From IMG/VR virus record IMGVR_UViG_2703718787_000017: DNA of 64,000 bases; one strand, given 5' to 3'. Below, in pieces: positions 51,001-54,000 of this stretch (its first letter is position 1; every line of letters starts with the position of its first letter). Position numbers: made by a program. Source of the stretch: a virus. Lineage: Duplodnaviria > Heunggongvirae > Uroviricota > Caudoviricetes.

Positions 51001-54000
51001 ATAAATTTATAAGCGCAGTCCTGAGCAGCCGGATAATGTTCCAGGAATTGCCAGTGAAATTTTGCTCGAGCACGGCGTTCGTCGCCAGCTTCAATGGCTG
51101 TGGCTACAGCCACAGCGCCTTCTTCCCTTGTTGCCAGTTCGTCAGGAATAGCGGCGCAAATAAAGACTTTACTCATTTTGTTTTAACCTCATGACAGATT
51201 TAAGGATGAACAAATCCCTGCCATTGCTGGCATATAAGAATGAAACCGGATATTTATTACGGAACTGTTTTAAAGACCTGCCGGGATTTCGATATTATCC
51301 TGGTGAATAACTTTATCGACCGGGTAACAGTTACCGGGAATTTTCTGTTCGGTTGCTGCAGTCATACACTCCTGCATTGTCCTGTGAACACTGACTGCAA
51401 TATCAACTGGCACTCCGGAAACAAGAAAAACTGTCAGAACAAGCGCAAATGCTGAATTCATTGTGCACATCCTTTTGGCATCAGACGTAAACGAGCCAGC
51501 ATTGAAACAATGCATATTTTATTTAATAGCTCCCGTTCTTGTTTTCTCTTGTTAATGGCATCTTCAGTAAATACAGGGTTACTGATAGTGACACCAATTT
51601 CAAAACAACCTTCAGACGTATTAACGTTTGGTAATAACGTTTTCATTATCGCGTCCTCAACAATGAATTTTGTGATGCAGTGCCTGGTGCCTCCAGGTGA
51701 CGTTAACCAGTTAACAATTAACGTCGGATACAGAGAATCCACCCATAACACTGTTTTTGGTTTTAACTGTTCCGCGTGCGCTTAGCCGCATTCACCGCAT
51801 CACAAAATTCACTTTAAAAACGGCGGCAGAGCAGTCACGGAGTAAAACTGATACCGCCAAACGTCACCAGAAAATTGATAACAGAGGGCGTTGCAGCGGG
51901 GTTGTCACTTAAGCGTATGGTCAACCTGACAACTCGGTGTCCTCAACGGGGAAGGAATAACCCCGCCATACTTACCGCCGCGCCATTTTGCGGGTTGCCA
52001 CAACCGGAAGCGCACGGTCGAATTAAATTTAACGACACCGTACAGCGAGACGAACTTCGCCGTGCGCTTTCGTGTTGTGTGCCTGCTTTTAACCACGTCA
52101 GGCGAGGTGGTATCCTTAAAATCACCACAGTTTTAAGGATTCATTAAGCAATGTCGCAACCACCAATAAATCCGCTTAAGAACATGAAAATTGATTACTG
52201 GTATAAAGCGCTTACAGTTGTTGGCGCTGCGTTGTTTGTCTTTAATGGAACGTCTTTTTTTGACAGATATCCCGTTGTTCCATTGGGTTTTTTGTCCTCC
52301 GGCATCTTTTTTATTGGTTTGGGGGAGTGGATTAATCACCCTCTCAAAGTGAGATTTATTGGTCCTGGAGTTTGGACTCGTGGATATAATAGTTCTTCGT
52401 GCGCACTCGGTATCATCTTCGACATACTTGGTTGTTTCCTGATTGTTACAGGAGTCGTCAAGTTCTTCTGATGTAAAACCGCAAATGGGGCACGTAACGG
52501 GAATTTTGAAAAGCGTTTCTCAGGGTTCCAGAACAAAATTTTCTGCGGTCTGATTTTGCTTCTCATATTTGTGCTCCGCGTCATTGTGAGAGCACATTCT
52601 TATTCTGAGTGCCTGTTTAAACTCACTGAAGCTGAGAGCTTCTTCGCCTTCGGCAAGGCCTTCGAAGTATTCTTCGTAAGCCTTTTCCATGATTGTGTCG
52701 AAATCCATATCACTCACCTGAGTTTCTTTCCAGCCAGCGACGGGCACCATTTTCGGTTTTAAACGTTTTGCTTTTGGTATACGTCATCGCGGTGAACGTA
52801 CCGTCCTGGTTGGGGAATACGCCACATACCAGAGATTCGTTGTTGCCAAGATCGATAGTATCCATGCTGACCTCATTTCCCCTTAACGCCGGGGTAGCGG
52901 AACTGTTTGCTGAGAACACCGTGCGGTGTCTTGATGGAGGTAATTTAGTTTTCTCATTGTTTTTCGTCAAGGTTTTTTGATGAGAAAACTCAAGTATTGG
53001 CGCAAGATAAAGCCAATACATTGAAATGTAAGGCTTTAAAATTTTGTGAAGGGATGATTATTGATGCTTGTTGCGTTTGCGAGCCTCTAATAGCTCGGTG
53101 AACAGGCGATTAAAATTCTCAACGCGGGCGCGGAGTTCGCTGAGTTGTGCTTGTTGCTCTGATTTAGGAAGTGCGCGATACAAACGCAGCATCTCTAACT
53201 CATCTTCCGATAAGTCTAAGGCACTATCGAGTGAAACAGGGGGAGCTGGTGTTTTGTCCTCGTCGCCAAACAGTATCCAGGTTGGTGAACATTGCAATAC
53301 CTCGGCGAGGCGATGCAAATTTTGCCCGCGCGGGGCTGTATGGTCACTTTCCCATAATGAAATTGATGAGCCAGATACGCCAGCAGCTTTGCTTAAACCG
53401 TTTTGACTTAAGCCTACCTGCTTACGTCTTTCTCTAATGCGTTGACCTAAAGTTTTCTCGTTCATATTTAGATATCTTAATAACCCTTGACTTGAGATTC
53501 CTTGAGTGATTAGCATTGAGAAAACTCAATATTGGAGGTGCGATGTTTAAATCAGACGTAATTAATTTTTACGGTACGAAAGCCAAAGTAGCGAAAGCTG
53601 CTGGCGTTGACCCATCTGCTGTTTCTCAATGGCAAGAGCTGGTTCCTGAAGGTCGCGCGATGCGTCTACAGGAGGCATCTGGCGGCGAGCTTCAGTATGA
53701 TCCCAAGGTTTATGACGAATATCGTAAGACGAAGCGGGCGGGGCGGTTGAACAATGAAAATCACTCCTGAACAGGCTCGTGAGGCTCTGGATGCCTGGAT
53801 ATGTCGACCAGGAATGACACAGGAGCAGGCGACGATATTAATCACTGAAGCATTCTGGGCTTTGAAAGAGCGCCCGAACATCGATGTTCAGCGTGTCACA
53901 GATGAAGGTGGCGCGGTTGATCAGCGAGCGCTTGGCGTTAATCGAGTGAAGATATTCGAACGCTGGAAGGCTATCGACACCAGGGATAAGCGTGAAAAGT

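What the first reader, a model, noticed from the sequence alone, without database searches (positions are those of the whole stretch)
53466..53542. Palindromic operator-like sites in the dicA-dicC divergent region
Seen: TTGAGAAAACTCAA palindrome and repeated CTTGAG half-sites between the divergent repressor and cro-like starts, consistent with a bistable immunity switch.
Basis: seen in the sequence. Interest (0 to 1): 0.2.

Follow-up and report, generated by a model that had tools for sequence, protein, structure and literature searches.

The report
Prophage repressor operator sites, DicA type
The palindrome lies in the control region of an E. coli lambdoid prophage immunity switch, laid out base for base like the phage P22 and Qin dicA-dicC regions but with its own recognition sequence, so it is real and ordinary.

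Summary
Window 53466-53542 is exactly the 77-bp gap between a DicA-family repressor gene (53058-53465, -) and a DicC/P22-Cro-family gene (53543-53770, +). TTGAGAAAACTCAA sits at 53516-53529, and CTTGAG occurs at 53491 and 53501.

The region is collinear, to within 1 bp, with the annotated OR1/OR2/OR3-PR-PRM region of phage P22 and with Oa/Om/Oc of the K-12 Qin prophage.
- The palindrome is the OR1/Oc equivalent. It starts at the last base of the dicC promoter -10.
- The CTTGAG pair is the weak OR2/Om equivalent.
- TTTAGATATCTTAA (53467-53480) is the OR3/Oa equivalent. It overlaps a PRM-like promoter whose hexamers are identical to those of P22 PRM.
- Two more copies outside the finding (52944-52957, 52980-52993) bracket the leftward promoter of the ydfA-dicF-dicB operon.

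These 14-mers stay conserved in E. coli variants and two Buttiauxella species while the DNA between them is scrambled. Relatives with other recognition helices carry other half-sites at the same positions.

Caveats: the second CTTGAG is in the wrong orientation and is not conserved, and no binding was tested. This is a new specificity variant of a well-known kind, of low interest.

The parts
53058..53465 (-). dicA-like immunity repressor gene. It encodes 135 aa: an N-terminal HTH plus a short C-terminal domain, with no S24 peptidase domain.
   Evidence: ORF. Pfam HTH_3 E 2e-15 and no peptidase domain. NCBIfam DicA subfamily 239 bits against a cut-off of 101. 57% identical to K-12 DicA. Residues 1-72 match the P22 C2 N-terminal domain structures 1adr/2r1j/3jxb, E 8e-16.
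53543..53770 (+). dicC-like cro gene (75 aa)
   Evidence: Pfam P22_Cro E 6e-17. NCBIfam DicC 167.6 bits against a cut-off of 130. P22 Cro structure 1rzs, E 8e-13. 71% identical to K-12 DicC.
53516..53529 (.). OR1/Oc-equivalent operator TTGAG-AAAA-CTCAA, a perfect 5-4-5 palindrome with 6-bp arms spanning 53515-53530. It starts at the last base of the PR-like -10 and covers the expected dicC transcription start.
   Evidence: Its core starts at the same offset from the repressor start codon as the P22 OR1 core, and it is the positional equivalent of Qin Oc (PMC3441716). Only 1 of 14 columns varies across 7 sequences that include two Buttiauxella species.
53492..53505 (.). The left half is canonical; the right half matches CTCAA at 3 of 5. 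It overlaps the last base of the PR -35 and the PRM-like -35.
   Evidence: It starts at the last T of TTGACT, as P22 OR2 does, and has the same ATTC spacer. 3 of 14 columns vary. The base that completes the second CTTGAG is A, G or C in relatives.
53467..53480 (.). OR3/Oa-equivalent site TTTAG-ATAT-CTTAA (8 of 10 to the local consensus). It lies 1 nt from the dicA start codon and overlaps the PRM-like -10.
   Evidence: (I10). Invariant in all 7 aligned sequences and also in Citrobacter braakii L010.
53487..53516 (+). PR-like promoter for dicC: -35 TTGACT (53487-53492), 18-nt spacer, -10 TAGCAT (53511-53516).
   Evidence: Consensus scan. TTGACT is at the same place in P22, Qin, PPompW and BUCT709. 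Relatives keep TA...T in the -10 (TAGTAT, TATCAT, TACTAT, TACCAT, TACTTT).
53474..53502 (-). PRM-like promoter for dicA: -35 AGGAAT (53502-53497), 17-nt spacer, -10 TAAGAT (53479-53474). The predicted transcript is nearly leaderless.
   Evidence: The hexamers and spacer length are identical to the annotated P22 PRM, AGGAAT-17-TAAGAT, in BK000583. Inferred by homology; no start site has been mapped here.
52944..52957 (-). OL1-equivalent operator. The minus strand reads ATGAG-AAAA-CTAAA. It overlaps the -10 of the leftward promoter.
   Evidence: (I1, I2). Same geometry as P22 OL1 and Qin dicBp. 2 of 14 columns vary, while all 7 columns of the adjacent gap vary.
52980..52993 (+). OL2-equivalent operator ATGAG-AAAA-CTCAA, 9 nt upstream of the leftward -35.
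   Evidence: D4. Compare P22 OL2, TGAAGAAAACTTAA, at the same place. 3 of 14 columns vary, while 9 of 9 and 18 of 19 flanking columns vary.
52942..52970 (-). PL/dicBp-like promoter: -35 TTGACG (52970-52965), 17-nt spacer, -10 TAAATT (52947-52942). It drives the ydfA-like gene (52710-52865), DicF (51821-51872) and the dicB-like gene (in ORF 51458-51751).
   Evidence: Consensus scan. P22 PL is TTGACC-17-TAAATT. DUF1391/YdfA. Rfam DicF 72.5 bits. NCBIfam DicB domain 130.6 bits.
57618..57866 (+). rem-like gene, 95% identical to the Qin antirepressor Rem. It is the probable route by which the switch is flipped.
   Evidence: tblastn of K-12 Rem against the window, 95.2% over residues 1-83. Rem relieves DicA repression in K-12 (PMC10448788). 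Its action on this DicA variant is inferred.

Best explanation
The 77-bp interval is the rightward operator-promoter region (OR type) of the immunity module of an E. coli lambdoid prophage. The prophage is mEp460_ev081/HannyBb-like and related to Qin.

Binding. A dimer of the DicA-like repressor recognises 5-4-5 sites with consensus TTGAG-AAAA-CTCAA. Its N-terminal helix-turn-helix domain is homologous to that of P22 C2. The outer bases would be contacted; the A-tract centre would be read through DNA shape.

The sites:
- OR1/Oc-like (53516-53529) is the strong, perfectly symmetric site. It abuts the -10 and covers the start of the dicC promoter, so bound repressor shuts off dicC and the rightward early genes.
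- The CTTGAG pair is the weak OR2/Om-like site. It lies over the two back-to-back -35 elements.
- The OR3/Oa-like site overlaps the -10 of a P22-PRM-like, near-leaderless dicA promoter.
- Two further sites (52944-52957 and 52980-52993) bracket the leftward promoter. There the same repressor silences the ydfA-dicF-dicB operon.

The switch. The Cro-like DicC is expected to use the same sites to shut off dicA, which gives a two-state switch. The repressor has no LexA-like cleavage domain, so the switch is probably flipped by the Rem-like antirepressor rather than by RecA.

What is shown: site positions, homology, conservation and co-variation. What is inferred: binding, repression or activation, the roles of OR2 and OR3, and Rem action.
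For: 1. Family membership of both genes.

2. Base-for-base collinearity with the annotated P22 OR/PR/PRM and OL/PL:
- the OR1 core starts the same distance (53 nt) from the first base of the repressor's CAT as in P22;
- OR2 starts at the last T of TTGACT in both and shares the ATTC spacer;
- the PRM hexamers are identical (AGGAAT-17-TAAGAT);
- the PL -10 is identical (TAAATT);
- site centres are 25 and 24 bp apart here, 25 and 23 bp in P22.

3. The same layout holds in K-12 Qin, PPompW and Stenotrophomonas phage BUCT709. In K-12 the Oc site at this position binds DicA in vivo. A single A-to-C change abolishes binding. DicA at Oc represses dicC and activates dicA (PMC3441716). The DicA site at dicC was recovered by Reg-Seq (PMC7567609). 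DicA represses dicBp 22-fold, and DicA/DicC behave as a bistable switch (PMC10448788).

4. Phylogenetic footprint across 4 E. coli variants, a MAG copy and 2 Buttiauxella species whose repressors are 74-76% identical:
- OR1 plus OR3 have 1 variable column of 28, against 22 of 49 in the rest of the intergenic region (Fisher p = 7e-5);
- OL1 plus OL2 have 5 of 28, against 73 of 105 (p = 2e-6).

5. Co-variation of helix and half-site:
- repressor helix S[G/D]SSISLWES with Cro helix DPSAVSQW goes with TTGAG;
- ISHVSVSQWER (K-12, Citrobacter NCU1) goes with TTAGT/TTAGC;
- VAHVTISQWE (PPompW, Enterobacter, BUCT709) goes with TTAGG/TTAGA;
- P22 VSNVAISQWER goes with TTAAG.

6. P22 repressor contacts positions 2-7 and 12-17, leaves the central 4 bp uncontacted and prefers A/T centres (PMC4267663). 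That fits the conserved AAAA centres here.

7. The repressor has no peptidase domain, and a Rem homologue is present.
Against: - No binding or expression data exist for this protein-site pair.
- In K-12 the Om and Oa sequences, tested alone, did not bind DicA in vivo (PMC3441716). The OR2- and OR3-like sites here may likewise be non-functional or strictly dependent on cooperativity.
- The OR2-like right half is a direct copy, not an inverted one. It matches at 3 of 5, and its last base varies within E. coli. Conservation of OR2 (3 of 14 variable columns) is intermediate and could come from the overlapping -35 elements.
- The OR3-like site is also invariant in Citrobacter braakii, whose OR1 is different. 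Its conservation may therefore reflect the overlapping promoter -10 and the 5' end of dicA rather than repressor recognition.
- The shuffle statistics for the 14-mer alone are modest: 2 of 100 shuffles give 3 matches.
- No third OL site was found.
Confidence: 0.82

Rival explanations
1. Single-operator variant. Only the perfect palindrome, plus the two leftward sites, is bound. The CTTGAG pair and the TTTAGATATCTTAA element are promoter parts (the -35 elements, and the -10 and start of the dicA promoter) or relics of a P22-like ancestor. They would not be working operators, so the switch runs without OR1-OR2-OR3 cooperativity.
For: - In K-12, Om and Oa did not bind DicA when tested alone (PMC3441716).
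- The OR2-like right half has the wrong orientation and is variable.
- The OR3-like site is unchanged in C. braakii despite a different OR1, and it fully contains the PRM-like -10.
- The repressor lacks the S24-type C-terminal domain.
Against: - The left half of the OR2-like site follows the local specificity in several lineages: TTGAG here, TTAGG in PPompW, TAAAG in P22.
- The OR3-like halves TTTAG and CTTAA are each one mismatch from the consensus, and TTTAG is also used in OL1.
- The 25 and 24 bp centre spacing is the classic tripartite spacing.
- Isolated-site assays cannot detect cooperative occupancy.
Confidence: 0.3
2. The palindrome acts as an RNA hairpin in the 5' leader of the dicC mRNA, affecting stability or translation, rather than as a DNA site.
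For: AUUGAG-AAAA-CUCAAU can form a 6-bp stem a few nucleotides upstream of the Shine-Dalgarno GGAGG.
Against: - The fold is no better than shuffles: -7.6 kcal/mol, z = -0.64, with 45 of 200 shuffles as good.
- The same 14-mer recurs in both orientations around the leftward promoter. One copy lies upstream of the -35, where it would not be in that transcript.
- The position matches proven protein operators in P22 and Qin.
Confidence: 0.03
3. Chance palindrome in AT-rich intergenic DNA, with no function.
For: CTTGAG is not enriched. Two of 100 shuffles give three near-matches to the 14-mer.
Against: - The matches cluster around the repressor gene.
- The sites are conserved in Buttiauxella while the flanks are scrambled.
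- They are positionally equivalent to known operators.
Confidence: 0.01

Closest known systems
Qin cryptic prophage dicA-dicC region of E. coli K-12 (operators Oa, Om, Oc and the dicB promoter)
   Same: - Same gene order: ydfA-ydfB-ydfC-dicF-dicB, then dicA, then divergent dicC and a ydaT/ydfX-like gene, with rem further right.
- Same 135-aa repressor architecture without a cleavage domain.
- A palindrome at the same place between the dicC -10 and the Shine-Dalgarno sequence.
- Two sites with identical geometry around the leftward promoter: one overlaps the -10, the other lies 9 nt upstream of the -35.
   Different: - The repressor is only 57% identical. The recognition helix is SGSSISLW instead of SHVSVSQW.
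- The N-terminal part of DicC differs, while its C-terminal 45 residues are identical.
- The half-site is TTGAG rather than TTAGT/TTAGC, so the two are probably heteroimmune (inferred).
- The prophage here matches isolated phages (HannyBb 99.9%, mEp460_ev081 98.7%) rather than a decayed remnant.
Phage P22 immC: c2 repressor, cro, OR1-3/PR/PRM and OL1-3/PL
   Same: - The N-terminal domain matches P22 C2 over residues 1-72 (47% by tblastn; phmmer E 8e-16), and the Cro is a homologue.
- Operators have the same 5-4-5 core with an uncontacted centre.
- OR sites, TTGACT, PRM hexamers (AGGAAT/TAAGAT) and the PL -10 (TAAATT) are at the same offsets.
- OR2 has the same ATTC spacer, and OL2 is nearly the same sequence.
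   Different: - Position 5 of the half-site is G, not A (TTGAG against TTAAG).
- Repressor helix positions 32, 33, 34 and 37 differ (N, V, A, Q become G, S, S, L), and E44 is A.
- The C-terminal S24 peptidase and oligomerisation domain is replaced by a short ~65-aa domain, so RecA-mediated cleavage is not expected.
- Only two OL sites are recognisable.
Lambda cI/cro OR switch
   Same: Divergent repressor and cro genes, three sites about 24 bp apart that overlap back-to-back promoters, a near-leaderless repressor mRNA, and bistability. These points rest on general knowledge and on PMC10448788.
   Different: No detectable sequence relationship of the operators. Lambda sites are 17 bp with a different consensus. 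The Cro fold family differs. Lambda repressor is inactivated by RecA-dependent cleavage.
Gifsy-type short repressors controlled by antirepressors (GfoR/GftR)
   Same: A short repressor without the Ala-Gly cleavage site, expected to be controlled by a small antirepressor (Rem here) (PMC10448788).
   Different: Their operator sequences were not examined.

Membership tests
DicA/DicC immunity module (Qin type) | Repressor belongs to the DicA protein subfamily: about 135 aa, HTH plus a short C-terminal domain, no S24 peptidase. | tested here: met
   NCBIfam NF007257 239.4 bits against a cut-off of 101, full length 1-135. Pfam finds HTH families only. 57% identical to K-12 DicA.
DicA/DicC immunity module (Qin type) | Divergent DicC (P22_Cro family) gene across a short intergenic region. 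| tested here: met
   NCBIfam NF007282 167.6 bits against a cut-off of 130. Pfam P22_Cro. The gap is 77 bp.
DicA/DicC immunity module (Qin type) | A leftward operon with ydfA, DicF RNA and dicB immediately downstream of dicA, behind its own promoter. | tested here: met
   DUF1391/YdfA. Rfam DicF 72.5 bits against a gathering score of 48. DicB domain 130.6 bits. Promoter-like site 52970-52942.
DicA/DicC immunity module (Qin type) | An inverted-repeat operator (Oc) between the dicC -10 and the dicC ribosome-binding site. | tested here: met
   53516-53529 lies at the position of K-12 TTGTTAGTTATGACTAACAA (PMC3441716).
DicA/DicC immunity module (Qin type) | The operator sequence is the same as in K-12 (same immunity specificity). 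| tested here: not met
   TTGAG-N4-CTCAA against TTAGT-N4-ACTAA, and the recognition helices differ. It is a member of the family with a different specificity.
DicA/DicC immunity module (Qin type) | DicA binds the operator, represses dicC and dicB, and activates dicA. | not testable with these tools
   Needs EMSA or footprinting and promoter fusions. It is known only for K-12 (PMC3441716, PMC10448788).
P22-type lambdoid OR/OL operator-promoter regions | Three partially symmetric sites about 23-25 bp apart between the repressor and cro genes, overlapping PR and PRM. | tested here: met
   Site centres are at 53473.5, 53498.5 and 53522.5. The sites match the local consensus at 8, 8 and 10 of 10. 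They are collinear with the P22 annotation. Caveat: the OR2 right half is poor.
P22-type lambdoid OR/OL operator-promoter regions | Repressor DNA-binding domain homologous to the P22 C2 N-terminal domain. | tested here: met
   phmmer against 1adr, 2r1j and 3jxb, E 8e-16 to 1e-14 over residues 1-72.
P22-type lambdoid OR/OL operator-promoter regions | Three OL sites at the leftward promoter. | tested here: inconclusive
   Two clear sites (52944-52957 and 52980-52993). No third full site was found. A conserved block at 53013-53032 carries only a CATTGA half-site-like motif.
P22-type lambdoid OR/OL operator-promoter regions | Repressor carries a LexA/S24-type C-terminal domain that is cleaved on SOS induction. 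| tested here: not met
   The protein is 135 aa with no Peptidase_S24 hit. The P22 homology ends at residue 72. So it works like P22 at the DNA level but is not a C2-type repressor.

The most novel reading that the evidence does not exclude
This widespread immunity type may run a simplified switch. One strong rightward operator and two leftward operators would be bound by a short repressor that lacks the classical cooperativity and cleavage domain. The direct-repeat CTTGAG element would act through an unusual asymmetric contact, or as a site for DicC or another factor such as the YdaT/CII-like protein. The E44-to-A change would relax the P22-style shape readout of the operator centre. That would make it a distinct solution to the lysis-lysogeny decision rather than a P22 copy with altered specificity.
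Probability: 0.12. Interest if true: 0.35.

Novelty: new member of a known kind. Interest (0 to 1): 0.15.

Why it matters
- It gives the operator sequence and promoter map for a DicA-type immunity group present in 797 of 5426 complete E. coli genomes and in isolated phages (HannyBb, mEp460_ev081). [quoted passage not shown]
- It gives a small helix-to-half-site table for DicA-family and P22-type repressors. That table could guide prediction of heteroimmunity.
- It places the leftward (dicB promoter) operators precisely. One paper describes the location of the DicA site there as unknown for K-12 (PMC7567609).
- None of this changes the accepted picture of lambdoid immunity switches.

Tried and rejected
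- Enrichment of the CTTGAG hexamer: not enriched (22 found, 31 expected). Rejected as evidence in itself.
- RNA hairpin reading of the palindrome: z = -0.64. Rejected.
- Terminator scan of 52800-53800: nothing found.
- Search for a third OL site: none at 8 or more of 10.
- The genome-contig scan gave only 11 loci. One, a Planctomycetota contig (L016) with 38% identity over residues 44-104 only, was not used. Three MAG contigs labelled Bacillota, Veillonella and Collinsella are E. coli-type copies, two identical to the window's repressor and one K-12 Qin-type. They add no diversity; the Bacillota one (L006) was kept as a row in alignment A4.
- The phage collection holds few full-length DicA-like repressors: 20 of 167 hits.
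- Literature search for mEp460 found no description of this operator.
- The large protein searches, structure prediction and fold search were not used, because family membership was already unambiguous.
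Full report
**What is at the coordinates**

Window 53466-53542 is exactly the 77-bp gap between two divergent genes.
- The leftward gene (53058-53465) encodes a 135-aa protein with one helix-turn-helix domain and nothing else in Pfam. 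It scores 239 bits on the NCBIfam DicA subfamily model (cut-off 101) and is 57% identical to K-12 DicA.
- The rightward gene (53543-53770) encodes a 75-aa protein of the Pfam P22_Cro family. It scores 168 bits on the DicC model (cut-off 130) and is 71% identical to K-12 DicC.
- Downstream of the repressor gene, on the same strand, lie a ydfA-like DUF1391 gene, a DicF RNA (51821-51872) and a dicB-like gene.
- A gene 95% identical to the Qin antirepressor Rem sits at 57618-57866.

The label 'dicA-dicC divergent region' is therefore correct.

The DNA is identical or nearly so in several sources: an E. coli STEC chromosome, the isolated phage HannyBb (99.9%) and mEp460_ev081 (98.7%). The central 131 bp occurs in 797 of 5426 complete E. 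coli genomes. PMC10448788 mentions mEp460_ev081 as a functional phage with dicAC, dicBF and rem.

**The observation**

TTGAGAAAACTCAA is at 53516-53529. With its flanks it reads ATTGAG-AAAA-CTCAAT. CTTGAG occurs at 53491 and 53501 as a direct repeat 10 bp apart.

The hexamer is not enriched in the window (22 found, 31 expected), so that count alone means nothing.

The 14-mer has two near-copies. Both lie outside the finding, on the other side of the repressor gene: 52980-52993 (one mismatch) and 52944-52957 (opposite strand, two mismatches). Scoring only the ten half-site positions, 23 sites in 64 kb reach 8 of 10. Five of them fall within 52944-53529, and the only sites scoring 9 or 10 are there. 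No shuffle out of 200 reached such a cluster.

**Anatomy compared with known systems**

I laid the region beside four others: K-12 Qin, phage PPompW, Stenotrophomonas phage BUCT709 and phage P22. The P22 record carries annotated OR1-3, OL1-3, PR, PRM and PL. The layout is the same in all of them:
- the repressor start codon;
- one or two bases;
- a 14-bp 5-4-5 site;
- six bases;
- TTGACT;
- a second site beginning at the last T of TTGACT;
- a -10 element;
- a third site;
- the ribosome-binding site and the cro start.

In the window the three sites are TTTAGATATCTTAA (53467-53480), TTGAGATTCCTTGA (53492-53505, which holds the two CTTGAG copies) and the perfect palindrome. Their centres are 25 and 24 bp apart, against 25 and 23 in P22.

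Promoter elements also match.
- The rightward promoter-like element is TTGACT-18-TAGCAT. The palindrome begins at its last base.
- On the other strand, 53502-53474 reads AGGAAT-17-TAAGAT. Both hexamers and the spacer length are identical to the annotated P22 PRM. This predicts a nearly leaderless dicA mRNA, as for P22 c2.
- The OR2-like site even shares the ATTC spacer of P22 OR2.
- On the left, 52970-52942 reads TTGACG-17-TAAATT (P22 PL: TTGACC-17-TAAATT). One site overlaps the -10 and the other lies 9 nt upstream of the -35. The geometry in K-12 upstream of ydfA is identical.

**Evidence that the 14-mers are functional**

A scan of one genome per species found Buttiauxella ferragutiae and B. 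gaviniae loci. Their repressors are 76% and 74% identical to the window's, and the B. ferragutiae Cro is 59% identical. I aligned these with three diverged E. coli variants.
- The OR1- and OR3-like sites together have 1 variable column of 28. The rest of the intergenic region has 22 of 49 (Fisher p = 7e-5).
- The two leftward sites have 5 of 28, against 73 of 105 around them (p = 2e-6).
- The gaps between sites and promoter hexamers are fully scrambled.

Specificity co-varies with protein sequence:

| Repressor helix | Source | Half-site |
|---|---|---|
| S[G/D]SSISLWES (with Cro helix DPSAVSQW) | window, Buttiauxella | TTGAG |
| ISHVSVSQWER | K-12, Citrobacter NCU1 | TTAGT/TTAGC |
| VAHVTISQWE | PPompW, Enterobacter, BUCT709 | TTAGG/TTAGA |
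| VSNVAISQWER | P22 | TTAAG |

The repressor's first 72 residues match the P22 C2 N-terminal domain, which has been solved on operator DNA. In that complex the protein contacts positions 2-7 and 12-17, leaves the central four base pairs untouched and prefers A/T centres (PMC4267663). This fits the conserved AAAA centres of the three strong sites here.

**Mechanism**

By homology with P22 and with the K-12 experiments, the expected behaviour is as follows.
- In K-12, Oc binds DicA in vivo, and one base change abolishes binding. DicA at Oc represses dicC and activates dicA (PMC3441716).
- In K-12, DicA represses dicBp 22-fold. DicC is needed for spontaneous switching, and Rem relieves repression (PMC10448788).
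- Here, repressor dimers at the palindrome should block the dicC promoter.
- Repressor at the two leftward sites should block the ydfA-dicF-dicB operon.
- DicC should act on the same sites to shut off dicA.

The repressor lacks an S24 domain, so RecA-dependent cleavage is not expected. The Rem homologue is the likely inducer. All of this is inference for the present variant.

**Weak points**

- The second CTTGAG is a direct copy, not an inverted one. It matches the expected right half at 3 of 5. The base that completes it is A, G or C among close relatives.
- The OR2-like site shows only intermediate conservation (3 of 14 variable columns). It overlaps two -35 elements, which could explain that conservation.
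- The OR3-like site is also unchanged in Citrobacter braakii, whose OR1 differs. It contains the PRM-like -10, so its conservation may be promoter-driven.
- In K-12, Om and Oa did not bind DicA when tested alone (PMC3441716).

I therefore keep a 'single strong operator' version as the main rival. An RNA-hairpin reading is rejected: z = -0.64, and copies occur in both orientations, one of them upstream of a -35. Chance is rejected on conservation and position.

**Verdict**

This is a real operator-promoter region of a well-understood kind. It carries a recognition sequence (TTGAG-N4-CTCAA) that I did not find described. It is a new member of a known kind, and interest is low.

Noticed in passing
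window 53013-53032: A conserved block, CAATACATTGAAATGTAAGG, lies between the dicA stop codon and the OL2-like site. Only 4 of its 20 columns vary across E. coli variants and Buttiauxella, while the flanks vary at 18 of 19 and 21 of 25. It contains CATTGA, the same left flank and half-site as the OR1-like palindrome, but has no matching right half. Its function is unknown. It could be a relic OL3 half-site or an element at the 3' end of dicA.
   Followed up: partly
window 52975-53060, minus strand: The RNA just after the dicA stop folds better than shuffles: -14.2 kcal/mol, z = -3.2. The stem is AAAGCC...GGCUUU around an inner ACAUU/AAUGU. A second inverted repeat, GTATTGGC/GCCAATAC (52994-53019), abuts the T-rich OL2 site. 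This may be the dicA terminator. The stems are not clearly kept by compensatory changes in Buttiauxella.
   Followed up: partly
window 53377-53390 and 53594-53607: A perfect 14-nt inverted repeat (ACGCCAGCAGCTTT / AAAGCTGCTGGCGT) has one arm in dicA and one in dicC (I3). Both arms encode K-A-A-G-V of the helix-turn-helix with identical codons. This may be chance or a trace of common origin or gene conversion.
   Followed up: no
window 53543-53770 compared with L001 3824-4054: There is a mosaic junction inside dicC. From LVPEGRAMRLQ... to the end, the protein is identical to K-12 DicC, while the N-terminal recognition part differs. Megablast against K-12 covers only the flanks of the immunity module (41% of the query). 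This is a classic immunity-module exchange boundary.
   Followed up: partly
window 53058-53465, repressor residue 44: The residue equivalent to P22 C2 Glu44 is Ala here and in both Buttiauxella homologues. In P22 that residue makes binding sensitive to the uncontacted operator centre (PMC4267663). Yet the strong sites here keep an AAAA centre.
   Followed up: no
window 51821-51872 (-), 51458-51751 (-), 57618-57866 (+): A DicF RNA (72.5 bits), a dicB-like gene and a Rem homologue (95% identical to K-12 Rem) are all present. The whole DicA-controlled cell-division inhibition circuit of Qin therefore exists in this prophage, which is apparently more complete.
   Followed up: partly
window 57077-57251; 60546-60969 and 63447-63831; 29172-29257 and 29708-29792: Other Rfam hits above gathering score: a sok antitoxin RNA, two cspA-type thermoregulator leaders and two sRNA-Xcc1 copies on the minus strand.
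   Followed up: no
L006, L007, L011: Metagenome-assembled genomes labelled Bacillota, Veillonella parvula and Collinsella carry E. coli-type dicA loci. Two have repressors identical to the window's, and one is K-12 Qin-type. This most likely reflects binning contamination.
   Followed up: no
L001 3240-3300 (K-12 Qin, upstream of ydfA): K-12 has TTAGCCATGACTAA overlapping the dicB-promoter -10 and TATGCTATAGCTAA 9 nt upstream of the -35. The geometry is identical to the window's two leftward sites. PMC7567609 describes the DicA binding location at dicB as unknown.
   Followed up: partly
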